Made by a program: the position numbers and the translations under genes
The notes under the pieces: model-generated
What the model saw: the letters and a program-made list of their open reading frames with translations, nothing else
What the model was told of the DNA's origin: nothing
Database searches by the model: none
Shown: positions 3,779-29,727 of the stretch, one piece after another
Position numbering within the stretch: position 1 is the first letter of the stretch
How the letters are laid out: each line of letters begins with the position of its first letter
Origin: a virus
Reading direction: 5' to 3' (one strand)
Length of the DNA: 64,000 bases
IMG/VR virus record: IMGVR_UViG_3300045988_091566

Positions 3779-4899
3779 TTACTAACAATGATTCAATATA
3801 TGATTATTGGTATGAAGATGGGTAGTTGTATGGTAGAAGAAAATCAAATAAAGTCCCTTTTAAAATTAATTCTGATAAAGCTAATAGTATAATATTTCCA
3901 TAGGTTTAGGCTAAAGGAGTAGATCCTACTAAACCAACATCTACCTTAGTATACCATCCTGCAAAATATAAAGAAATGCCCACTGCTAAAAAAATATCTA
4001 TTCCTAAATAGGAAAAAGAAACAATATGGGAACGTGGTAAATAGTTGATTAATTTAGTAGGAAATGGATTAAGTAGAAAACTATAGTTATTTTTTGATTC
4101 AGAACCTGAGCATACTAGTAAAAGAATTAAAATTTCTAATAAAAAAATAACTAAAAATAAGAGGAGAGAAAATTTAGAAATAGAAATATCTCCAAATAGT
4201 TATACTATAAATGATACTACTAAAATAAACTCTAGAAGATATCGTATACCAGAATCCATAAATTTAACAAAGCATACTTTTGGTTATAGAAATAGAGGTG
4301 ATTATACTCCTATAAATAGTGTAGCAGCTCCTATTACTGCTTTTTCTAATTTCAAATCTAAAGAAAGCATATCTCCTAATAATTAGAATTATATAGGTAT
4401 AGATTCTATTGGTAAATTTGTTTTTGGTAAATATTCAGATATTCCTAATGGAAGTATGATTTCTCCAACATTTAAAAATACAGTTACTGGTTTTAAAACA
4501 GATTCTAAAGATAATGTATTATTCATGGAAAGTAATTCTAATGGTTCTAGAAAAAGTCCTATATTAAATGCTATAGTAAATGGTAAATCAGTAAATAACA
4601 GACTAAATTTCTTAGCTAATAATAATAGAACTGATGAATATGGTTCTATAGCTGGAGGAAGAATAATTATATAGGCGGGTAAAGAAGTTCGTTTAGTTTC
4701 CGGAAGTATAGATAATATTAGAGATGAGATAGAAGCTATGAAATCTAGAAACAATGTTAAAACAGTAGATTTATATACTTTAGATAATGGTACTTATCAT
4801 TCAGGATTAAGAACTTTTGATAAAATATTTACTAGAGATGACTTACTAAAATATGATGCTCAAAATACGGGCGGAGGAAATTTTTTATATATAAAATAA
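3763..4899 (+). CDS. hypothetical late/structural protein (378 aa), TAG-recoded (about 9 in-frame TAG)
   Basis: Frame 1 is continuous from ATG 3763 to TAA 4897-4899 with TAG as sense (MAVQVITNNDSIYDYWYEDG*LYGRRKSNKVPFK...). The ORF-track fragment 4456..4674 lies in the same frame. Confidence 0.55.
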
Positions 4900-7115: not shown

Positions 7116-7595
7116 CTAAATAAACTTATACTCAATTATATTTTTTATAATTTGAGTTCTATCAGATATTTTACCTTTAAAAAAGTATTCAGGATTTAAA
7201 TAGTAAACAGCTTTATATCTAGAATCTTTTAATAACATCTTTTTCTTTACTAAAGAAGTAATAGTATTACGTATAGTTCCAGCAGCTAAGTTAGTTTTAA
7301 TTTTAATAGTATCTCTAAGTTCTTCATCTAAAGAAATCTTATTTCCTGGAAGTGCCCTATCTTTATCTTCATAATAATTAGAAGTATACCATAAAACAGC
7401 TAATACATTAGACTCTGCTTTAGATAACTTATAAAATTCTTCATTATCTCTTAAATATATCTGGCAGAATTGTTCAGCACTAACAGTTTTAATAGTTTTA
7501 ACTTCAGCTGATAATATCTCTCCACCCACTCCAACTTTAATTGACTCTATTTGTTTCATATTAACATTTGTTTTAATTAAAATTAATTTATTCAT
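7116..7595 (-). CDS. hypothetical protein (159 aa), possible DNA-binding regulator
   Basis: ORF track. It is the first gene of the minus-strand unit and lies next to the divergent promoter region. Confidence 0.45.
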   Translation of the reverse strand: MNKLILIKTNVNMKQIESIKVGVGGEILSAEVKTIKTVSAEQFCQIYLRDNEEFYKLSKAESNVLAVLWYTSNYYEDKDRALPGNKISLDEELRDTIKIKTNLAAGTIRNTITSLVKKKMLLKDSRYKAVYYLNPEYFFKGKISDRTQIIKNIIEYKFI

Positions 7596-12677: not shown

Positions 12678-13029
12678 AAAAATTGTATCAGGTTGTGAGA
12701 GTCTTGCCGGTAAAGCTCTCACAATAGATCATGATGCTAGAACTTATCACATTGGTGATAGAGTAATTCCATTTTCTTCTTGTGTTATTAAAGAAGGTAA
12801 AATTTATTACTTGACACCAATGTGTAAAGTTCTTGTTGATATGGGTTTTAAAGGCGTAGCAGATTTTACCTCTAATACAGTTATTTGTACTAGTTTTGAT
12901 AATTGTAATCGCAATATTAAAACTGTAGGACTTGTAACTATCGACGACAGAGTCTTTATTAAGATTACTCTTAATTCAGAATTTCCAATGTATGAAGGTT
13001 ACGAATCTTTAAGAAGTGAAGTTTATTAG
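12655..13029 (+). CDS. hypothetical protein (124 aa); ends TAG followed immediately by TAA
   Basis: ORF track. The terminal codons are TAT TAG TAA. Confidence 0.4.
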   Translation: MNTESLNKKIVSGCESLAGKALTIDHDARTYHIGDRVIPFSSCVIKEGKIYYLTPMCKVLVDMGFKGVADFTSNTVICTSFDNCNRNIKTVGLVTIDDRVFIKITLNSEFPMYEGYESLRSEVY

Positions 13030-13184
13030 TAAAAAAAGAATGAAGCTGCACTCTAGTACTATAGAGTATAATAAATAGTTGACATCTTGGAAAGAAAATT
13101 GGTTAATCATAAGACAAGACTTATGTATTTTTAAAATAAAATAGTTATCAACAATATACAGTTTAGATCATTTTCGCTAGTTCG

Positions 13185-13199
13185 GTCTGTGATAGATAG
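13185..13199 (+). repeat. copy 1 of the conserved loop motif GTCTGTGRWAGATAG
   Basis: GTCTGTGATAGATAG in a 350-nt non-coding region. Confidence 0.5.
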
Positions 13200-13259
13200 G
13201 GCTAGTTACTTTAGTAATCTATTATGTCCATAAGCACAATAGATTACAAAGACAAATAT

Positions 13260-13290
13260 TAGAGTTCAGTCTGTGGTAGATAGAACTCTA
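13260..13290 (+). repeat. copy 2: hairpin TAGAGTTC-[AGTCTGTGGTAGATA]-GAACTCTA
   Basis: 8-bp stem with the conserved loop motif. Confidence 0.55.
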
Positions 13291-13381
13291 AGTGTAAACC
13301 TACATCCTGCATATCCAAAGTAGCAGACTCTTAATGAGAAAGGTGATGGCACATTATTAATAATTAAATAGTTTAAAAAAA

Positions 13382-13552
13382 ATGGAGACAAAAGACATTA
13401 TTAAGATTACAGCATTAGTCTTTTCTAAAAAGAAAACTATTGCACAAGTAAGTAAGGAGTACAAAGCTATTCATGGTAAAGAACTTCCAATCAAGAGTGA
13501 CTTAGAAACATTACAAGCACAATTATCTTTGGGAGGAATTTATCAATGGTGA
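13382..13552 (+). CDS. small hypothetical protein (56 aa); ATGA overlap with the next gene
   Basis: Hand translation: METKDIIKITALVFSKKKTIAQVSKEYKAIHGKELPIKSDLETLQAQLSLGGIYQW*. Confidence 0.3.
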   Translation: METKDIIKITALVFSKKKTIAQVSKEYKAIHGKELPIKSDLETLQAQLSLGGIYQW

Positions 13553-13905
13553 CAATGAATCACAATACTCTGGGAGAATTAGTAATAATGCTCTCAGCAC
13601 AGATTGATGCAGAGTACAATATTTCTAAGACTACACATGCTAACTATGCTAATGCTTTCAATAAGAAATATCAATATCTTAATAATACATTAAGAATTAT
13701 TTCTGGAGAAAGTATAAAGGGAGGAACATTTGCAGCATATATTAGAAATCCTTTGTTAGTATTATCGGGACTGATTATGGATAAGTACAAGAAAATATTA
13801 TTTACAGATATAAAAGGTAACACTTTTGTTGTGAATAATGTCAAATGGCTTTACCAATATATGAGTTCTAAAAACATTAATACAGAACCAAGAATATATG
13901 GATAA
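13546..13905 (+). CDS. hypothetical protein (119 aa)
   Basis: ORF track. Confidence 0.45.
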   Translation: MVTMNHNTLGELVIMLSAQIDAEYNISKTTHANYANAFNKKYQYLNNTLRIISGESIKGGTFAAYIRNPLLVLSGLIMDKYKKILFTDIKGNTFVVNNVKWLYQYMSSKNINTEPRIYG

Positions 13906-14296
13906 AGGTTTGCTAGGAATTGTTATACTTGCTTTTATTTTATGTATGATTTGGATTATTGCCAGTCATAATAAAGTAATGAAACAAGTAAAACTTAATC
14001 AGCTAAGAGATATAAGAAGCAGTATAAATAATGCTTTAAGTCTCTACGATTGTTTGTATATACATATTAATATGTATAATAAAGGATTTACTGAAAGTAA
14101 ATCTTTGACATTTGATGGAATAATAGTTCTATCAAATAACTTATCATCTAAAACTGTAATGTTCAAAGAGGGAACTTTAGAATATATCGAAGGTCATTAT
14201 GAAGCTGACTCTGAAACTTATAAAACAGCATTAGCTACATATAAATCTAGATTAATTTCTGAAGTTGATCTTGAACTAGATAGATATAACTATTAA
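13898..14296 (+). CDS. hypothetical membrane protein (132 aa) with an N-terminal TM helix
   Basis: ORF track. Hydrophobic N-terminus LLGIVILAFILCMIWIIA. Confidence 0.45.
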   Translation: MDKGLLGIVILAFILCMIWIIASHNKVMKQVKLNQLRDIRSSINNALSLYDCLYIHINMYNKGFTESKSLTFDGIIVLSNNLSSKTVMFKEGTLEYIEGHYEADSETYKTALATYKSRLISEVDLELDRYNY

Positions 14297-14307
14297 TTTT
14301 AAAAATT

Positions 14308-14703
14308 ATGGAATTATTATTTAATGTTAAACAGAAAAATGTTGTGGCTAAGATTGGTGAAGATTACTTCTTTCTTAGCAAGAAACCAAAGAAACTAGAG
14401 TTTGCTGATTCCGTGCATAAGACTTTAGTCTTAAAGCATTTTAAAGCTCTGAAACCAACTATTGAAGAACATTCAGTTATTGATGAGTCATTAACTGTAG
14501 ATGAGTGGAAAGATTTTCCAGTATGGTTAGAGAATGAATCTAATGGCGCTGAAGGAAATCTTGAGATTACTAAATTTACTTATGGTAATATTAAACTATA
14601 TGTAAATGGTGGATGCCTTTGTGGAAATGTTCCAGAATATGCTTTAAAAGGCATCATTAAATTGTTCAAACAATCTAAAACGAAAGAAAATGCAGACAAT
14701 TAA
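14308..14703 (+). CDS. hypothetical protein (131 aa)
   Basis: ORF track. Confidence 0.45.
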   Translation: MELLFNVKQKNVVAKIGEDYFFLSKKPKKLEFADSVHKTLVLKHFKALKPTIEEHSVIDESLTVDEWKDFPVWLENESNGAEGNLEITKFTYGNIKLYVNGGCLCGNVPEYALKGIIKLFKQSKTKENADN

Positions 14704-15205
14704 GAAAGTAAAGTACAGCATTGAGAGAGTTGGTAACAGTACGTTTTGTACTATGTCTTGTGATTTAGAGTACATAATGGATTACTTAGAAGGAGCTAAT
14801 ATAAAAGTTTCAAGTGCTGATACTTCTGTATTCCTTAAAATTGCGACTTCTAAAGAAAGAAAGATTTTCATTAAAAACCTTGCTTCTTGGGGACTTACTG
14901 TTGATAATTCTACTGTAACAGTCGTTTCTAAAATTACTTTAAGTAAAAATGATAAGGACGACCAGGTAGTAGCTAATCGAATTGTGAGAGATAAAGCTAT
15001 GCATACTATGTGTAAAGTTATTGCAAACGCTTTAAATCAGGCTTTGGATTCTACTTATAATAGATTAGCTAAAGTAAACAATATTATTAATAAGTTAGAG
15101 CACATTGCTTATCATTCAAAATATAATGAGGATGATACAACATGTGATATTGAAGATTATCCAGATCCAGAAGATGATGATGTGGATATTGCAGACATAC
15201 TATAA
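14690..15205 (+). CDS. hypothetical protein (171 aa) with an acidic C-terminus
   Basis: ORF track. Confidence 0.45.
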   Translation: MQTIKKVKYSIERVGNSTFCTMSCDLEYIMDYLEGANIKVSSADTSVFLKIATSKERKIFIKNLASWGLTVDNSTVTVVSKITLSKNDKDDQVVANRIVRDKAMHTMCKVIANALNQALDSTYNRLAKVNNIINKLEHIAYHSKYNEDDTTCDIEDYPDPEDDDVDIADIL

Positions 15206-15321
15206 AATTGTCTTTGTATCGTATTAAAAGTTTAAAATTTGCAAAATATAATGATTTAAACTATAAAGTTTGAAATTAACAAATTTTTACTTTTACAATG
15301 GATATTTGAAACTATAGTAGA

Positions 15322-15585
15322 GTGTTGTTGAGAAACAATGCTCTATATACTATTAACTTTATAAAAATTATAATTATGAAAGTTTTAAGAAAGATATATA
15401 ATGTTATTAATAATAGCATTCAGTCTCGTGTAGTCAATTCTAAAGAAGAGGCTAACAAATACATTATTTCGCTCAATAGAACTTTAGAAAATAAAGTATC
15501 TCTTGAGACAGTAAATAATAAACAGGTAGAAGCCGTTAAAATTAATGGTAAATGGTGTATATCTGAAACTGAAATAATAGAGTAA
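15322..15585 (+). CDS. hypothetical protein (87 aa)
   Basis: ORF track. Confidence 0.4.
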   Translation: MLLRNNALYTINFIKIIIMKVLRKIYNVINNSIQSRVVNSKEEANKYIISLNRTLENKVSLETVNNKQVEAVKINGKWCISETEIIE

Positions 15586-15602
15586 TTCTGTAAAGTTCAT
15601 AT

Positions 15603-15634
15603 ATATTGTTGGCAACTAGCAGATAATTAGTTGC
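15603..15634 (+). repeat. conserved 31-nt element TATTGTTGGCAACTAGCAGATAATTAGTTGC (hairpin GCAACTA/TAGTTGC) immediately upstream of tRNA array 1
   Basis: A near-identical copy lies at 18051-18081, upstream of tRNA array 2. Confidence 0.6.
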
Positions 15635-15638
15635 ACTT

Positions 15639-15711
15639 GGTCCTGTAGCTCAGTGTATAGAGCAGGAATCTTCTAAATTCCGGGTCGTGAGTTAGATTCT
15701 CACCAGGACCA
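15639..15711 (+). tRNA. tRNA-Arg (anticodon TCT)
   Basis: Hand-folded cloverleaf: acceptor GGTCCTG/CAGGACC, D arm GCTC-AGTGTATA-GAGC, anticodon arm GGAAT-CTTCTAA-ATTCC, T arm GTGAG-TTAGATT-CTCAC. 73 nt. Confidence 0.7.
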
Positions 15712-15716
15712 CACAT

Positions 15717-15796
15717 GCGGAGTTAGCTTAATGGCTAGAGCACCTTACTTCCACAATTCATGAGAGGTTATATTGGTTCGAATCCTTTACTCCGTA
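15717..15796 (+). tRNA. atypical tRNA-like gene (80 nt); anticodon arm not canonical, isotype undetermined
   Basis: Acceptor GCGGAGT/ACTCCGT and D arm GCTT-AATGGCTA-GAGC are clear, and it contains GGTTCGAATCC. Positions 26-52 form only a stem (ACCTT/GAGGT) around a 17-nt loop. The T stem is weak. Confidence 0.4.
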
Positions 15797-15812
15797 CTAA
15801 CATTTAAAAAGA

Positions 15813-16172
15813 TTGAGTAATATGAAAAAGATTATTTTATTAATGAGTTTTATTGTATTAACTACAATAGCTCATGCGTTTAATTATGGTTCTATCACTG
15901 TTTATCAAGATGGTGAATGGAGTGATCCATTTTACATTAAAACTTCAGTAGTATATAATGAAGCTAGAAAAACTATTACTTTTAGTAATAGTAAGTTTGG
16001 TAAAATGGTATTAAAAATATACTCTTCTGAAATGAAGGATGGAGTAGAAATCCATAATTGTGGAGAGGTTAATACAGGAAGACGCTTTGTTGTCTTTATT
16101 ACAGTAAGAAATAAAATTCCTTACGTAACTCTTAGTACTTCCGCAGATACCATGTTTTCATTTGGCTTTTAA
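15813..16172 (+). CDS. secreted hypothetical protein (119 aa) with a Sec signal peptide
   Basis: ORF track. N-terminus MSNMKKIILLMSFIVLTTIAHA is a typical signal peptide. The gene is embedded between tRNA genes. Confidence 0.5.
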   Translation: MSNMKKIILLMSFIVLTTIAHAFNYGSITVYQDGEWSDPFYIKTSVVYNEARKTITFSNSKFGKMVLKIYSSEMKDGVEIHNCGEVNTGRRFVVFITVRNKIPYVTLSTSADTMFSFGF

Positions 16173-16227
16173 GTTTCCATAATAATGTGTTAACGTTTTA
16201 CTAGTTTTCCGATATAAACTAGTACTT

Positions 16228-16311
16228 ACGGTAGTAGCTCAGTGGTTAGAGCATCTCTTTTTATAATAGGTCATTTCGAGAAGGTCATTGGTTCGAATCC
16301 TTTCTACCGTA
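16228..16311 (+). tRNA. atypical tRNA-like gene (84 nt); anticodon arm not canonical, isotype undetermined
   Basis: Acceptor ACGGTAG/CTACCGT and D arm GCTC-AGTGGTTA-GAGC are clear. The region ending ATTGGTTCGAATCCTTT is identical to the corresponding region of the 15717 gene. The middle 34 nt fold only as a TCTC/GAGA stem around a 20-nt loop. Confidence 0.4.
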
Positions 16312-16419
16312 CAAATTTAATTTGATATATTGTTAGTGTGTTTGGATAAATCCTGACTAATAAATTTATTAGTATAGGTAGGTGTTACCACTATTCTCCT
16401 TTATAGAAATGTGGGCTAT

Positions 16420-16489
16420 GGAGATATAGCTCAGAAGGTCAGAGCACGGTGAAAATCCCGAGGTTGTGGTTCAATTCCACGTATCTCCA
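16420..16489 (+). tRNA. atypical tRNA-like gene (70 nt); no canonical anticodon stem found
   Basis: Acceptor GGAGATA/TATCTCC, D arm GCTC-AGAAGGTCA-GAGC, T arm TGTGG-TTCAATT-CCACG. The 19 nt in between (ACGGTGAAAATCCCGAGGT) do not form a 5/7/5 arm. Confidence 0.35.
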
Positions 16490-16522
16490 CTATATACAAG
16501 AATAAAATTCTTATGCAGATTA

Positions 16523-16593
16523 GCTCTCTAAGCTTTAAGGTGAAGCACGAAACTTTTAATTTCGGGAAGACAGGTCAGTACTGTCAGGGAGCA
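16523..16593 (+). tRNA. tRNA-Lys (anticodon TTT); genomically encoded CCA follows at 16594-16596
   Basis: Acceptor GCTCTCT/AGGGAGC, D arm GCTT-TAAGGTG-AAGC, anticodon arm CGAAA-CTTTTAA-TTTCG, T arm GACAG-GTCAGTA-CTGTC, discriminator A, then CCA. Confidence 0.65.
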
Positions 16594-16637
16594 CCATTAA
16601 TTTTTAATTTATTAAAAGTATTCATTTGTAATACACG

Positions 16638-16667
16638 AGATTCTCAGTCTGTGAAGATAGAGAATCT
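16638..16667 (+). repeat. copy 3 of the hairpin motif: AGATTCTC-[AGTCTGTGAAGATA]-GAGAATCT
   Basis: 8-bp stem with the conserved loop, between the tRNA-Lys and tRNA-Glu genes. Confidence 0.55.
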
Positions 16668-16671
16668 ACTT

Positions 16672-16744
16672 GGCACTATCGTCTAGCTGGTCAGGACGTA
16701 ACTTTTTCAAAGTTATAAGGCGATTTCGAGCATCGCTAGTGCTA
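16672..16744 (+). tRNA. tRNA-Glu (anticodon TTC)
   Basis: Acceptor GGCACTA/TAGTGCT (G1-U72 wobble), anticodon arm TAACT-TTTTCAA-AGTTA, T arm GCGAT-TTCGAGC-ATCGC. Confidence 0.65.
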
Positions 16745-16825
16745 CTCTTCCATATTTAAAAAACTAATACGATTAATGTTTAAAATATAAAGTCAGCGGA
16801 CTTTATAACGTTAAAGAGTTGTTAG

Positions 16826-16851
16826 GCTTCTTGTCTGTGAAGATAGGGAGC
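16826..16851 (+). repeat. copy 4 of the hairpin motif: GCTTC-[TTGTCTGTGAAGATAG]-GGAGC
   Basis: Conserved loop immediately upstream of the tRNA-Ser gene. Confidence 0.5.
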
Positions 16852-16857
16852 TTTATT

Positions 16858-16945
16858 GGAGAAATGACTGAGTGGTCGAAAGTGGCACCCTGCTAAGGTG
16901 TTAGTCATATTACATGGCTCGAAGGTTCGAATCCTTCTTTCTCCG
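16858..16945 (+). tRNA. tRNA-Ser (anticodon GCT), type II with a long variable arm
   Basis: Acceptor GGAGAAA/TTTCTCC, anticodon arm GCACC-CTGCTAA-GGTGT, long variable arm, T arm GAAGG-TTCGAAT-CCTTC. 88 nt. Confidence 0.65.
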
Positions 16946-16990
16946 CTTTATTCATACTTGTAATTATAAAATATGGTTCGTGAGAATAGT

Positions 16991-17063
16991 ATTTTATTCG
17001 GAGGATTAGTGTAACGGTTTCACACGAGGGACTTTGACTCCCTAATAGGCAGTCCGACTCTGC
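16991..17063 (+). tRNA. tRNA-Gln (anticodon TTG)
   Basis: Acceptor GGAGGAT/ATCCTCT, D arm GTGT-AACGGTTTC-ACAC, anticodon arm AGGGA-CTTTGAC-TCCCT, T arm GGCAG-TCCGACT-CTGCC. Confidence 0.65.
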
Positions 17064-17263
17064 CATCCTCTACTAATTAATACATAGGTACTAAACAACT
17101 CTCAGTAACTCTGTTAAATAGCGTAATTACCTTAAAATTAATCATTTGGGTTAAAAAGAAAAAGAACGTTAGATAACTGAGGACAATGGAATAGTTTAAA
17201 TATAACCAGTGAAAATCGCCTATTATTTAAATAGATTATTAACACATTAATTATAGATAAATT

Positions 17264-17653
17264 ATGACAAGACAAGATTATTTTATTAGTAAAACCAATT
17301 TAATAGCACAAATAGAAAGTGCTAAGAAATTTGGTTGTAAACATGTACTCAAGTGTGCAAAGTTAAATTTAGCTGAACTTGAAAAGAGGTACAAAAAAGA
17401 ACATCTTTCTAATCCTCTGTTCAGTTACATGGTAACTGATGAAGAAATGGACGAACTTATTAGAAATGATGAAAAACCTACATTTAAAATCAAAGTAACT
17501 TTTAAAAGTGGAGAAGCTTATGATTTGATGTTTTATCATGAACTTAAAAGTGGAGTTAAACATTCTGATGTTGTGAAATGGGCGATGATAGGATTAACTA
17601 AAACTATTCATCATCCTGAAAATATTGTAGATGCTCGTTTTATTATGGGTTAA
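17264..17653 (+). CDS. hypothetical protein (129 aa)
   Basis: ORF track. Confidence 0.45.
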   Translation: MTRQDYFISKTNLIAQIESAKKFGCKHVLKCAKLNLAELEKRYKKEHLSNPLFSYMVTDEEMDELIRNDEKPTFKIKVTFKSGEAYDLMFYHELKSGVKHSDVVKWAMIGLTKTIHHPENIVDARFIMG

Positions 17654-17658
17654 AAGAT

Positions 17659-18018
17659 ATGGAAGTAAAAACAATACAGATTGACTCTGATACATTTTTA
17701 GTGTTTAAGGGACGAGAGTACAGACAGATAAACATAAATGATATTGTATGTATAAAAACATCTGGTAAATATAGTACTATAATAGATGTTCATGGCAATA
17801 GTATTATTGTGTGTTGCTCATTAAAAAATATTTCACGTGTTTTATGTATTGATTTTATTCTTGCAACACAAGGATTTTTAATAAATCATAAATACATATC
17901 TGAAATAACTAGAAAGAATGATGAAAATAATACATATATCTTAAAATTAAATGATGATATTCATACAACTGTGAACATTTCATTATACGTAGCTACAAAT
18001 ATGTTAAAACAACTGTAA
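17659..18018 (+). CDS. hypothetical protein (119 aa)
   Basis: ORF track. Confidence 0.45.
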   Translation: MEVKTIQIDSDTFLVFKGREYRQININDIVCIKTSGKYSTIIDVHGNSIIVCCSLKNISRVLCIDFILATQGFLINHKYISEITRKNDENNTYILKLNDDIHTTVNISLYVATNMLKQL

Positions 18019-18050: not shown

Positions 18051-18081
18051 TATTGTTAGCAACTAGCAGATAATTAGTTGC
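18051..18081 (+). repeat. second copy of the 31-nt element TATTGTTAGCAACTAGCAGATAATTAGTTGC upstream of tRNA array 2
   Basis: One mismatch relative to the copy at 15603-15634. Confidence 0.6.
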
Positions 18082-18087
18082 TTATTA

Positions 18088-28584: not shown

Positions 28585-29097
28585 AGAGTTCTAAATTAGA
28601 ACTCTTTTAAGTATGGGGCATTCGTGGTTTTGATTGTATAGGAGATAAGAAGCACAGCAAAGACAGTTGGAAAGACAACAAAACAATAAATGCTAGAGTT
28701 ATCAATATGACTTCTGTTTCTTACGCTATTGCAGCCTAAGAAACCGAGCAGCACTTGCTTAGGAACAGAAAGGTGCACTATTTTCCATTTCTTTTAAGTT
28801 CTCTGTATACTTTAGGAACAGAGTGGTGGAAGTTGACAGTATATTAATCCTGTCAACCCTAACAGACAAGGACAGTCTTTAAAACCTATGCTGTAAGAAC
28901 GTTTTGATGCAAATATGCAAGACTGGAGTTTAATTTCGGACTCGGTATAGAGTGATTTATACAATAATTAATCGGATGAATTCAGGGAACGCTAAAAATA
29001 ATGCTTAGCTAGAACTAACATTATTCATGCCAATCCTGAGCTAAGCATATAGTACACTATATGAAAGTGCAGAGACTACTGGAGAGATTTAGTTCTC
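28585..29097. other. about 510-nt GC-elevated non-coding region immediately 3' of the minus-strand HNH gene; multiple hairpins; candidate structured RNA or intron-like element
   Basis: No credible ORF. Minus-strand hairpins GTTGACAG..CTGTCAAC, CCTAAG..CTTAGG and GCTTAGCT..AGCTAAGC. Confidence 0.3.
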
Positions 29098-29727
29098 TTA
29101 ATTACCAGCTTGAGCGTCCGACCCTTCATTAGAAGGTGATGATATAGTCCACTCCTCATCGAAAGATGAGGTATAGGAAGATATTAGTTTTAAAAACTTT
29201 TTAGTATCTAAATCAGACATTTCAGATTTCATAAAATTTATTGGAGTAGATATAAATTGTACATTTCCTTTGATATAGCCTTTAGAAGAATCTATCCTAT
29301 CAAGAGAGGCTCTGTAAATAAAAGGAATTTTTTTTAGATTTCCATAAGTAGGGAGAATAAGGTCTAGTCCTGTGTAAGGACATTTACCATTTTGTTTTTC
29401 CCATACTTCTTTTAAATATTCTAAATCTATATCAACTTCCTTAAATCTTTTTTTAGCATTTCTAAGGGAATATCTAAAAGGTGTATATTCATCTTCATGA
29501 TTATTACATATATTTAATAGGTGTTCTCTTTGTTTATCTGAAATTGGTCTGCCAGCTCTACTTTTATTATTAAATTTAGCTGCACATGATCTAGAACAAA
29601 AATTATGTCTTCCTAATCTAACATTTCTTTTGTACTCGGATTCAGGTTTCTGAAATTCCTTACCACAACAATCACAAGTGATTGTAACTAACTTTCTACC
29701 AATACAATACTTTTTTAATTCTGTCAT
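29098..29727 (-). CDS. HNH homing endonuclease (HNH_3-like; 209 aa)
   Basis: N-terminal Cys-rich region CDCCGKEF..CSRSCAAKF. C-terminal NGKCPYTGLDL...SLDRIDSSKGYIKGNVQFIS, matching the LDRIDNxKGY HNH_3-type signature. Confidence 0.75.
   Translation of the reverse strand: MTELKKYCIGRKLVTITCDCCGKEFQKPESEYKRNVRLGRHNFCSRSCAAKFNNKSRAGRPISDKQREHLLNICNNHEDEYTPFRYSLRNAKKRFKEVDIDLEYLKEVWEKQNGKCPYTGLDLILPTYGNLKKIPFIYRASLDRIDSSKGYIKGNVQFISTPINFMKSEMSDLDTKKFLKLISSYTSSFDEEWTISSPSNEGSDAQAGN

What the first reader, a model, noticed from the sequence alone, without database searches (positions are those of the whole stretch)
13185..16851. Conserved hairpin-loop motif GTCTGTG(A/G)(A/T)AGATAG present four times
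The same 14-15-nt sequence appears four times.
- In the loop of three different hairpins with unrelated stems (13260-13290, 16638-16667, 16826-16851).
- Once unpaired (13185-13199).

Its conservation inside loops, with co-varying stems, argues that it is recognised as RNA or by a sequence-specific protein. Candidate roles are an RNA-processing site, a terminator or antiterminator, or a phage middle/late promoter element. Two copies flank tRNAs and two sit in a 350-nt non-coding gap.
Basis: seen in the sequence. Interest (0 to 1): 0.6.

Follow-up and report, generated by a model that had tools for sequence, protein, structure and literature searches.

The report
Conserved-tip RNA hairpin before phage tRNAs
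The repeated 14-15-nt sequence is the tip of an RNA hairpin found in many gut Bacteroidales phages (including crAssphage), almost always just upstream of an RNA cutting or ending point such as a tRNA 5' end or a self-cleaving ribozyme; I found no description of it, and its binding partner is unknown.

Summary
The motif is real: four + strand copies against 0.05 expected. All four are hairpin tips, including the copy called unpaired. A fifth, compensated variant lies at 16966-16997.

The motif is not a loop. It forms a 4-5 bp helix (GUCU/AGAU, first pair G.U) capped by a GNGA tetraloop or a triloop. This sits on a free-sequence 7-9 bp stem, joined through a Y:G pair and an N.A mismatch.

81% of the unique 14-mer sites have complementary flanks, against 1.3% by chance. 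Both helices covary.

The family occurs in large (94-181 kb) phage contigs related to this window, in Crassvirales including prototype crAssphage (three copies in one gap), in temperate Bacteroidales phages, and rarely in Bacteroidales chromosomes.

The hairpin base lies 2-11 nt before tRNA 5' ends (25/88 sites against 8/3000 controls). It occupies the P0 position of hatchet ribozymes, precedes hammerheads, or is followed by a U-tract.

Best reading, at 40%: a boundary hairpin that caps the RNA released by RNase P, ribozyme cleavage or termination, with a tip recognised by an unidentified, probably host, factor.

Rfam 15 has no family for it, and I found no paper.

The parts
13176..13206 (+). 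Hairpin copy 1. It has the 15-nt tip GUCUG-UGA-UAGAU and a G.U-rich outer stem GCUAGUU/GGCUAGU.
   Evidence: Fold -12.4 kcal/mol. Model R1 scores 30.6 bits, E 3.5e-6. Orthologues in L121, L305, L336, L340 and L352 toggle position 9 between U and C, which keeps the G5:Y9 pair.
13259..13291 (+). Hairpin copy 2. It has the tip GUCUG-UGG-UAGAU and the outer stem UAGAGUUC/GAACUCUA.
   Evidence: Fold -13.4 kcal/mol, z -3.7. R1 scores 26.9 bits. Changes in the 3' arm of relatives keep pairing, U-A to U.G.
13207..13258 (+). Spacer between copies 1 and 2. It holds a third hairpin with a different sequence and is part of a roughly 215-nt structured non-coding stretch, 13170-13385.
   Evidence: MFE of 13170-13385 is -54.2 kcal/mol, z -3.8, and 0 of 200 shuffles fold as well. 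There is no Rfam match.
16638..16667 (+). Hairpin copy 3 (canonical 14-nt tip). It ends 4 nt before tRNA-Glu.
   Evidence: R1 scores 40.2 bits. Fold -13.6 kcal/mol. The tip is 15 nt in the relative L063.
16672..16745 (+). tRNA-Glu (UUC). Its 5' end, the expected RNase P site, lies 4 nt after copy 3.
   Evidence: ARAGORN. Rfam tRNA 51.9 bits.
16824..16853 (+). Hairpin copy 4 (canonical tip, 13 continuous base pairs). It ends 4 nt before tRNA-Ser.
   Evidence: R1 scores 40.3 bits. Fold -16.5 kcal/mol, z -5.1.
16858..16946 (+). tRNA-Ser (GCU), 4 nt after copy 4.
   Evidence: ARAGORN. Rfam 58.8 bits.
16966..16997 (+). Hairpin copy 5, a variant tip GUUC-GUGA-GAAU with the same architecture: 9-bp outer stem, g.a mismatch, 4-bp inner helix starting G.U, GUGA loop. 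It ends 2 nt before tRNA-Gln.
   Evidence: Found by a structural descriptor scan. The window gives 2 hits against a mean of 0.1 in shuffles. Fold of the tRNA-Gln leader. R1 missed it, so this is my assignment.
17000..17073 (+). tRNA-Gln (UUG), 2 nt after copy 5.
   Evidence: ARAGORN. Rfam 51.5 bits.

Best explanation
The motif is the tip of a cis-acting RNA 'boundary hairpin'. It is transcribed with the flanking genes and sits immediately 5' of a point where the RNA chain is cut or ends.

In this window, RNase P cleavage at the 5' ends of tRNA-Glu, tRNA-Ser and tRNA-Gln would leave the hairpin plus a 2-4 nt tail as the 3' end of the upstream product. In relatives, a hatchet ribozyme (which cuts at its own 5' edge) or a U-tract terminator produces the same kind of end.

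A 12-14 bp hairpin with such a short tail should resist 3'-to-5' exonucleases. It also locks up upstream sequence, so the tRNA or ribozyme behind it can fold undisturbed.

The near-invariant tip is read here as a recognition module for a factor common to Bacteroidales cells, because unrelated phage groups share it and no phage gene travels with it. The tip consists of a Y:G pair, an N.A mismatch, a G.U-started 4-bp helix and a GNGA tetraloop.

Shown: the structure, the covariation, the distribution and the spacing to tRNA and hatchet sites. Inferred: that cleavage happens there in vivo, that the hairpin protects or insulates, and that a host factor binds the tip.
For: Structure:
- All window copies fold.
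- In 125 sites chosen only by the core word, flank positions -2-k and +1+k pair with every Watson-Crick type.
- On alignment A3, 98.4% of cells are paired, against 34-48% in slid registers. The covariation score is 0.80, against 0.17 when shuffled. A3 was pre-filtered for at least 6 of 7 pairs.
- Tip variants found by the model are compensated: C3:G10 to A:U or U:A, U2:A11 to C:G, U4:A9 to C:G, and G1.U12 to A.C twice. The loop is always GNGA.

RNA strand:
- G.U pairs are common, for example Y:G is C:G 65 and U:G 48.
- 122 of 131 sites are intergenic, and 69 have both flanking ORFs on the same strand.

Position:
- 19 sites have an ARAGORN tRNA starting 10-21 nt after the core.
- A strict acceptor plus T-arm signature starts 2-11 nt after the stem base in 25 of 88 unique sites, against 8 of 3000 random positions.
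- The Rfam Hatchet match starts at the hairpin base in L078, L017 and L070. From the alignment, I place the likely cleavage site about 5 nt after the base in L078.
- About 90% of hatchets are reported to have such a P0 hairpin, which is dispensable in vitro (PMC4604424).
- A run of four or more T follows within 20 nt of the core in 58 of 131 sites.

Spread and partner:
- Three unrelated phage groups plus Bacteroidales genomes carry the hairpin.
- No shared neighbouring gene was found.
Against: - No transcript-end data exist for any copy.
- Copies 1 and 2 of the window have no recognisable cleavage site or U-tract downstream.
- In crAssphage one copy sits inside the cap of hammerhead stem III, 6 nt upstream of the 3' strand of stem III and 16 nt from the predicted cut, and another lies on the 5' side of the ribozyme. 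The '3' cap' reading does not fit all ribozyme cases.
- In about 29% of sites a TTTG box lies 4-10 nt upstream of the stem, and six sites have the Bacteroidetes -7 box TAnnTTTG at exactly 6 nt. Some hairpins therefore start a transcript rather than end one.
- Exonuclease blocking and insulation do not need a conserved tip, so the key feature rests on an unidentified partner.
- Relatives L325 and L352 have lost or broken copies 1 and 2, so these are dispensable.
Confidence: 0.4

Rival explanations
1. Regulated attenuator or operator. The hairpin is a promoter-proximal terminator, or a pause or processing block, in front of tRNA, ribozyme and early-gene units. A protein that binds the tip decides whether RNA polymerase or RNase P proceeds, which would time tRNA expression during infection.
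For: - 58 of 131 sites have a T-run right after the stem.
- In temperate phages the order is -7 box, U/G-rich leader, hairpin, U-tract, then a tRNA-like gene within 6-11 nt.
- A conserved tip on a variable stem is what a protein operator looks like.
Against: - The five window copies lack U-tracts.
- No candidate regulator gene is linked.
- The same tip occurs in lytic crAssphage, in large-phage contigs and in ordinary host gene 3' regions.
- A protein bound to the terminator tip would favour termination rather than relieve it.
Confidence: 0.2
2. The hairpin is itself the product. RNase P, a hatchet ribozyme or termination releases a roughly 35-60 nt small RNA, which acts in trans as a decoy or aptamer for a conserved Bacteroidales protein such as a decay, defence or translation factor.
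For: - Promoter-like -7 boxes are placed so that transcription would start at or just before the stem in a subset of sites.
- Three different devices generate a 3' end 2-11 nt after the hairpin.
- Host intergenic examples look like 60-90 nt sRNA genes that end in this hairpin.
- There is a weak resemblance to the terminator tip of the Bacteroides sRNA MasB/BTnc201 (PMC10994844).
- phi14:2, a crAss-like phage, makes abundant stable early non-coding RNAs from intergenic gaps (bioRxiv 10.1101/2020.03.07.982082).
Against: - Most sites show no promoter box (60 of 85).
- In tRNA arrays the hairpin follows the previous tRNA with too little room for a promoter (L097).
- The MasB match is far below threshold, 20.8 against 105 bits.
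- No target is known.
Confidence: 0.15
3. An ordinary stable terminator or leader cap with no specific partner. On this reading the tip is a favoured fast-folding GNRA module, and recombination copies it between sites within and between phages.
For: - GNRA tetraloops are common in terminators (general knowledge).
- Many copies carry U-tracts.
- Most tRNAs in the window have some leader hairpin with a different tip.
- A deletion in L325 shows that the 15-nt cores do recombine.
Against: - Thermodynamics does not explain near-invariance of 12-14 nt. This includes a G.U pair that changes only to A.C, a conserved unpaired A and a conserved Y:G pair, across phages of 26-50% GC with fully different stems.
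- Compensated variants show selection on the fold rather than copying.
Confidence: 0.12
4. A DNA-level element. This could be a single-strand hairpin promoter of the N4 type, a priming or replication signal, or a cassette-boundary recombination site like the promoter-stem-loop (PeSL) repeats of T4-type phages.
For: - The hairpin base lies 2-5 nt before the first base of the tRNA, a geometry like that of N4 early promoters as I recall it.
- The copies mark borders of variable gene blocks. The block 13382-16172 is absent from relative L063.
- There is a core-to-core deletion in L325.
Against: - G.U (G.T) pairs are frequent on the sense strand and would be A.C mismatches on the template strand.
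- Compensatory changes preserve pairing rather than sequence.
- The same hairpin is the P0 element of an RNA ribozyme.
- It occurs in phages with very different polymerases and in host genes.
Confidence: 0.08

Closest known systems
P0 hairpin of hatchet self-cleaving ribozymes (Weinberg et al. 2015; Li et al. 2015, PMC4604424)
   Same: It is a hairpin a few nucleotides 5' of the cleavage site and is not needed for catalysis. In L078, L017 and L070 our hairpin occupies exactly this position.
   Different: P0 was described as lacking sequence conservation. This family has a near-invariant tip. It is also found without any hatchet, before tRNAs, hammerheads, ORFs and U-tracts. The window has no hatchet.
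Intrinsic (Rho-independent) terminator hairpins
   Same: Both are a stem-loop on the sense strand in intergenic DNA. 58 of 131 family members have a T-run right after the stem.
   Different: The five window copies have no U-tract. Terminators have no conserved 14-nt tip, internal mismatch or fixed spacing to a tRNA.
RNase III processing hairpins between phage T7 genes (3'-stabilising stem-loops). This comparison is from my own knowledge.
   Same: Both are phage intergenic hairpins that are cut next to or within and stay as a protective 3' structure on the upstream RNA.
   Different: Here the cut would be made by RNase P or a ribozyme outside the hairpin. At 12-14 bp the stem is short for RNase III. 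The conserved part is the tip, not the stem.
Lambda boxB / nut and similar protein-binding hairpins (GNRA-like loop on a short stem). This comparison is from my own knowledge.
   Same: Both carry a GNRA-type loop with conserved closing pairs, on the sense strand of early transcripts, sometimes close to promoters.
   Different: There is no boxA and no N-like gene. The outer stem is long and variable. The hairpin is present in lytic and temperate phages of unrelated families and in host genes.
MasB (BTnc201) sRNA terminator of Bacteroides thetaiotaomicron (RF04177; PMC10994844)
   Same: Both have a U/G-rich stretch, then a hairpin, then a U-tract. The Rfam consensus tip CUUGUC-UGGUGU-GAUAGG is close to CUUGUCU-GUGA-AGAUAGG.
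   Different: The score is 20.8 bits against a gathering score of 105. The loop differs, a hexaloop against GNGA. The 5' part of MasB is absent.
Theta (minimal HDV-like) ribozymes of gut phages (PMC10879173)
   Same: Both occur in phages predicted to infect mainly Bacteroidota, both are tied to phage tRNA ends, and both are mostly confined to phages rather than bacterial genomes.
   Different: Theta ribozymes lie 3' of tRNAs and are catalytic pseudoknots. This element is a simple hairpin 5' of tRNAs, and there is no HDV-like match in the window.

Membership tests
Any Rfam 15 family | Covariance-model score at or above the family's gathering score | tested here: not met
   No match covers any copy at gathering score or at E up to 10 in 13000-17200. 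The only weak hit in relatives is BTnc201, 20.8 against 105 bits.
Intrinsic terminator | G+C-rich hairpin followed at once by a U-tract | tested here: not met
   The consensus scan of 12900-17300 found 0 terminator-like sites. The tails are UACUUUAG, AGUGUAAA, ACUUGGCA, UAUUGGAG and UCGGAGGA. This feature is met by 58 of 131 family members elsewhere.
Hatchet ribozyme P0 hairpin | Hairpin a few nt 5' of a hatchet cleavage site | tested here: not met
   There is no Hatchet match in the window. The feature is met in L078, L017 and L070, where RF02678 scores 82-94 bits and starts at the hairpin base.
Pre-tRNA 5' leader element (RNase P substrate context) | Lies on the tRNA strand directly upstream of tRNA position +1 | tested here: met
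   Copies 3, 4 and 5 end 4, 4 and 2 nt before tRNA-Glu, tRNA-Ser and tRNA-Gln. The association is about 100-fold above random in relatives. Cleavage itself was not tested.
Structured RNA (as opposed to a DNA sequence motif) | Compensatory base changes, and G.U pairs on one strand only | tested here: met
   Nine of 11 pairs show changes on both sides. Inner-helix pairs switch to A:U, U:A and C:G. Wobble pairs far outnumber A.C.
CRISPR repeat or RNA anti-CRISPR (solitary repeat) | Whole repeat, stem included, constant in sequence and matching a host array | tested here: not met
   Only the 14-nt tip is constant and every stem differs. Matching to host arrays was not tested.
N4-type hairpin promoter | DNA hairpin formed on the template strand, short stem with 3-nt loop, recognised by a virion RNA polymerase | tested here: not met
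   The G.T wobble pairs are on the sense strand and would be A.C on the template strand. The loop and stem geometry differ. Polymerase dependence cannot be tested here.
tRNA anticodon-arm mimic (CUGUGAA read as a tRNA-His-like loop) | 5-bp stem closing a 7-nt loop | tested here: not met
   Covariation supports the register with a 4-nt loop (U4:A9, C3:G10, U2:A11) and outer pairing from -2:+1. It does not support the 7-nt-loop register.
Lambda-type nut site (boxA + boxB) | boxA sequence upstream and an N-family antiterminator gene in the phage | not tested
   The positional scan found no further conserved flank, apart from weak T enrichment at -26 and in the downstream T-run, and no shared neighbouring gene was found. 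A boxA consensus for Bacteroidales is not available to me.

The most novel reading that the evidence does not exclude
The hairpin is a host-directed RNA tag shared across unrelated phage families. Bacteroidales phages place it in front of tRNAs and ribozymes, and processing releases it as a small RNA. Its G.U / A-mismatch / GNGA tip would bind one conserved Bacteroidales protein, for example an RNA-decay, RNase P-associated or defence factor. This would give the phage control over processing or survival of its own RNAs. It would also explain why hatchet ribozymes keep a 'dispensable' P0.
Probability: 0.15. Interest if true: 0.85.

Novelty: new variant of a known kind. Interest (0 to 1): 0.62.

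Why it matters
- Self-cleaving ribozymes and tRNA clusters are common in gut phages, yet what the ribozymes are for is still open. A conserved hairpin that sits at the same place before tRNAs, hatchets and hammerheads, in crAssphage, in large gut phages and in Bacteroides prophages, links these elements into one RNA-processing layout.
- It gives a short, mutable handle for experiments: pull-downs, end mapping and stability assays.
- It would give the hatchet P0 hairpin a role.
- It offers a simple marker for annotating non-coding units and atypical tRNA genes in Bacteroidales phages.

Tried and rejected
- **Rfam:** gathering and E up to 10 gave no family for the hairpin.
- **Literature by sequence string:** only two unrelated eukaryote-biology papers (a Kv1 ion-channel preprint and a mouse FOXO3 study), presumably oligonucleotide matches. 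Keyword searches on crAss terminators and Bacteroides Term-seq found nothing relevant.
- **FopS/GibS sRNAs:** rejected. Their conserved part is a single-stranded 5' seed, and the authors state that the consensus was deposited in Rfam, which gave no match to the hairpin.
- **Theta ribozymes:** rejected. They lie 3' of tRNAs, and the spacers here contain no GC-rich pseudoknot.
- **K-turn, loop E, T-loop and tRNA-His anticodon-loop readings of the tip:** considered and dropped, because covariation fixes a 4-bp helix plus tetraloop.
- **CRISPR repeat or anti-CRISPR RNA:** dropped, because the stems vary.
- **Linked protein:** all-against-all clustering of about 2000 ORFs around 121 loci found only gene families typical of one temperate-phage group, and none shared with the window phage or crAssphage. 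Flanking window ORFs have no Pfam or PHROG function, except a LytTR domain at 17659-18018.
- **Lak-A1 megaphage tRNA region (40 kb, 19 tRNAs):** no copy. The element is therefore not a Lak trait.
- **Sigma-70 promoter and terminator scan of the region:** no more sites than in shuffles.
- **Distant BLAST of the 13030-13400 gap:** only the near-identical contig.
- **Hammerhead-core regex around hairpins:** no general enrichment, 6 downstream against 6 upstream. The hammerhead link holds for particular loci only.

Full report
**1. The observation**

The pattern GTCTGTG-N(0-4)-AGATA occurs four times in the 64-kb window. All four are on the + strand, at 13185, 13269, 16647 and 16833. Dinucleotide-preserving shuffles give 0.05 expected, and none of 100 shuffles reaches four. 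The window has 29% G+C.

The motif is not a loop. It pairs with itself, either as GUCU-GUGA-AGAU (4 bp plus a GNRA tetraloop, copies 3 and 4) or as GUCUG-UGR-UAGAU (5 bp plus a triloop, copies 1 and 2). The whole element is therefore a 12-13 bp hairpin with a variable base and a constant tip.

A structural descriptor scan found a fifth member at 16966-16997. Its tip is GUUC-GUGA-GAAU, two compensated pairs away from the canonical tip.

Copies 3, 4 and 5 end 4, 4 and 2 nt before tRNA-Glu, tRNA-Ser and tRNA-Gln. Copies 1 and 2 lie in the non-coding gap 13030-13381, which folds into a chain of hairpins with z -3.8.

**2. Where the window comes from**

- The region 12900-17200 is 96.6% identical to an unannotated human-gut phage contig, MT835539.1.
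- More distant relatives carrying orthologous hairpins are IMG/VR contigs of 94-181 kb.
- Only a 117-nt stretch, 17084-17200, matches the Prevotella Lak megaphages.
- A 40-kb Lak-A1 tRNA region has no copy of the hairpin.
- The flanking ORFs are small proteins with no Pfam or PHROG function.

**3. The family beyond the window**

So did a scan with the 15-mer GTCTGTGATAGATAG.

Among unique 14-mer sites, 79 of 97 (81%) have at least 6 of 7 flanking positions complementary. I calculate about 1.3% for random flanks. About 47 of 64 unique 15-mer sites are also in hairpins. The contigs range from 26% to 50% G+C.

The contigs include:
- prototype crAssphage. Locus L061 is 95-96% identical to Carjivirus communis BK010471.1;
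- another crAss-like lineage, cr6_1;
- many temperate phages that share XRE-type repressor and recombination genes;
- contigs of 140-360 kb.

In the complete crAssphage genome, model R1 finds exactly three copies, all in the 378-nt gap between gp08 and gp09.

The single scan of 185,579 species genomes was mostly chance matches, as expected for a 14-mer in 596 Gb. Twenty of the 120 sites are hairpin-type:
- 13 are from Bacteroidales (Prevotella, Segatella, Bacteroides, Bacteroidaceae);
- three sites, on two contigs, are crAss-like sequence binned into other taxa;
- four are doubtful.

Some Bacteroidales sites are in prophage-like DNA. Others lie in intergenic regions next to ordinary host genes, judged by reading the predicted protein sequences.

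**4. Anatomy and covariation**

In 125 sites chosen only by the core word, flank position -2-k pairs with +1+k for seven to nine steps, using every Watson-Crick type plus G.U. The features are:
- The innermost outer pair is C:G (65 sites) or U:G (48 sites).
- Position -1 faces the conserved A after AGAU, as G.A in half the sites.
- On an 80-sequence alignment, 98.4% of cells pair, against 34-48% in slid registers. The covariation score is 0.80, against 0.17 in shuffles. This alignment was pre-filtered for at least 6 of 7 pairs, so one search is the unbiased view.
- Covariance model R1 found extra, non-identical copies in the fetched loci.
- Their tips carry compensated changes: GUAU...AUAU, GCCU...AGGU, GUCC...GGAU and GUUU...AAAU. 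G1.U12 is replaced twice by A.C.
- The loop is GUGA, GCGA, GGGA or GAGA.
- Between close relatives of the window, the 14- and 15-nt forms interconvert. Position 9 toggles between U and C opposite G5.

The consensus is therefore: a variable 7-9 bp stem, a Y:G pair, an N.A mismatch, a 4-bp helix that starts with a wobble pair, and a GNGA loop.

Frequent G.U pairs, strand specificity, an intergenic position in 122 of 131 sites and co-orientation with both neighbours in 69 sites point to an RNA.

**5. What lies next to it**

- *tRNAs.* ARAGORN places a same-strand tRNA 10-21 nt after the core in 19 sites. The isotypes are Met, Arg, Glu, Ile, Lys, Ala and Ser. Many more are followed by tRNA-like genes that ARAGORN misses, some with long insertions. 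A strict signature (7/7 acceptor pairs plus a perfect T arm) begins 2-11 nt after the stem base in 25 of 88 unique sites, against 8 of 3000 random positions.
- *Hatchet ribozymes.* Rfam gathering-score Hatchet matches begin at the hairpin base in L078, L017 and L070. From the alignment, I place the likely cleavage site about 5 nt after the stem in L078. This is the position of the hatchet 'P0' hairpin, reported in about 90% of hatchets, said to lack sequence conservation and dispensable in vitro (PMC4604424).
- *Hammerheads.* A RAGATH-1 hammerhead lies between two copies in L085. L095 has a compact hammerhead-like fold 11 nt after a copy. CrAssphage has one whose stem III cap contains copy 2 (stem I 6/6, stem III 9/9, CUGAUGA, GAAAC, GUC|C), though Rfam does not score it. 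A crude hammerhead-core regex shows no general enrichment.
- *U-tracts.* 58 of 131 sites have a T-run right after the stem, and T reaches 55-60% at +7 to +11. Most such sites precede ORFs. In temperate phages some precede tRNA-like genes by only 6-11 nt.
- *Upstream.* TTTG is enriched about six-fold at 4-10 nt before the stem base. TAnnTTTG, the Bacteroidetes -7 promoter box as I know it, sits at exactly 6 nt in six sites. Some hairpins are therefore promoter-proximal.
- *Flanks and linked genes.* The positional scan found no other conserved flank, and no gene is consistently linked.

In the window itself most tRNAs have some hairpin 2-5 nt upstream. The motif hairpins are thus a conserved-tip subset of a general leader-hairpin layout.

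**6. Mechanism**

What the contexts share is that an RNA 3' end is made a few nucleotides after the hairpin. RNase P does this at a tRNA 5' end, hatchet does it at its own 5' edge, and termination does it at a U-tract.

The spacing to the downstream element is tight: 2-6 nt without a U-tract and 6-11 nt with one. The distance to upstream genes varies from 14 to more than 1600 nt.

A 12-14 bp hairpin with a tail this short should be a poor substrate for 3' exonucleases, which need a longer single-stranded tail (established enzymology, not tested here). It would also keep upstream sequence from mispairing with the 5' strand of the acceptor stem or of ribozyme stem I.

My best reading, at confidence 0.4, is therefore a boundary hairpin that caps the upstream product and insulates the downstream fold. 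I read the conserved tip as a recognition module for a factor common to Bacteroidales cells. The hairpin is shared by unrelated phages, is rare in host genomes and has no linked phage gene.

The structure and positions are shown. Cleavage in vivo, protection and the partner are all inferred.

Rival readings are a regulated attenuator or operator (0.2), a released small decoy RNA (0.15), a generic stable cap without a partner (0.12) and a DNA-level signal (0.08). The promoter boxes and the crAssphage hammerhead arrangement are the main data that the best reading does not absorb.

**7. Comparison with known elements**

The closest described element is hatchet P0. The hairpin also resembles intrinsic terminators, T7 RNase III 3' stem-loops and boxB-type protein sites.

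A weak Rfam alignment (20.8 bits, E 0.23) pairs crAssphage copy 1 with the terminator hairpin of the Bacteroides sRNA MasB/BTnc201. Its consensus tip CUUGUC-UGGUGU-GAUAGG is similar but not the same.

Theta ribozymes (PMC10879173) occur in phages predicted to infect mainly Bacteroidota, but on the 3' side of tRNAs.

In the crAss-like phage phi14:2, long early intergenic regions give abundant, stable non-coding RNAs of unknown function (bioRxiv 10.1101/2020.03.07.982082). The crAssphage gp08-gp09 gap may be of that kind.

**8. Verdict**

- The element belongs to a large conserved-tip hairpin family of Bacteroidales phages. Rfam 15 has no family for it, and I found no description of it.
- Its position is well defined. 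Its molecular partner is unknown.

Noticed in passing
window 16228-16312; also 15717-15796, 16420-16489, 16523-16593: ARAGORN calls an 85-nt tRNA with anticodon UUA ('tRNA-Stop', ochre-suppressor-like). Three further tRNA-like genes are seen only by the Rfam tRNA model, and some carry insertions. I did not check whether the phage reassigns a stop codon.
   Followed up: no
window 28915-29171 (+): Group I catalytic intron, RF00028, 85.9 bits, full-length match. The host gene was not examined.
   Followed up: no
window 17084-17200 (+); L244 20001-20117: A 117-nt non-coding stretch, 11 nt downstream of tRNA-Gln in the window and about 115 nt downstream of a tRNA-Gln in Lak-A1, is 95% identical to Prevotella megaphages Lak-A1, A2 and C1. 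The rest of the 4.3-kb region has no Lak match. My query ended at 17200, so the conserved element may be longer. It could be a shared non-coding RNA.
   Followed up: partly
window 15612-15634 and 18058-18082 (+); also 16199-16224: A second repeated leader hairpin, GCAACTAGCAGATAATTAGTTGC, sits 4-5 nt before tRNA-Arg and tRNA-Leu. Other tRNAs (16228, 36109, 36841) have unrelated hairpins 3-4 nt upstream. A leader hairpin before tRNAs is a general layout in this phage.
   Followed up: partly
L242 (crAssphage BK010471.1) 4322-4454; L095 minus strand, around reverse-complement position 1799-1853: Hammerhead-like folds that Rfam does not score. They have CUGAUGA, GAAAC, stem I 6/6, stem III 9/9 and a GUC|C cleavage triplet, plus an extra U before stem II. 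The crAssphage version carries hairpin copy 2 in the cap of stem III.
   Followed up: partly
L325 608-930 and L352 1721-2043 (relatives of window 13100-13400): L325 has a deletion that joins the 5' arm of copy 1 to the 3' arm of copy 2 through the shared 15-nt core. L352 lacks the 3' arm of copy 2. The repeated cores recombine, and these two copies are dispensable.
   Followed up: partly
L078 5528-5646 (Hatchet alignment): The conserved loop of hatchet stem P1 in the Rfam consensus (cuGUGAgAAUCag) resembles the hairpin tip string (GUGAAGAUA, or GUGAGAAUA in window copy 5). Whether this is coincidence or relatedness is unexplained.
   Followed up: no
window 16746-16823 (+), spacer between tRNA-Glu and copy 4: This spacer is almost invariant across the window, L121 and the much more diverged L063, while neighbouring sequence differs. 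It contains another hairpin, ATAAAGTC-AGCG-GACTTTAT, at 16786-16805. It may hold a promoter or another RNA element.
   Followed up: no
L110 (temperate Bacteroidales phage), reverse-complement positions 7211, 7557, 10503: All three hairpins directly precede tRNA-like genes. Rfam recognises only one of them, as a 132-nt tRNA with a long insertion. The hairpin may help to find atypical or intron-bearing phage tRNA genes. RAGATH-9, RAGATH-7-assoc, DUF2693-FD RNAs and a permuted tmRNA occur in other hairpin-bearing loci.
   Followed up: partly
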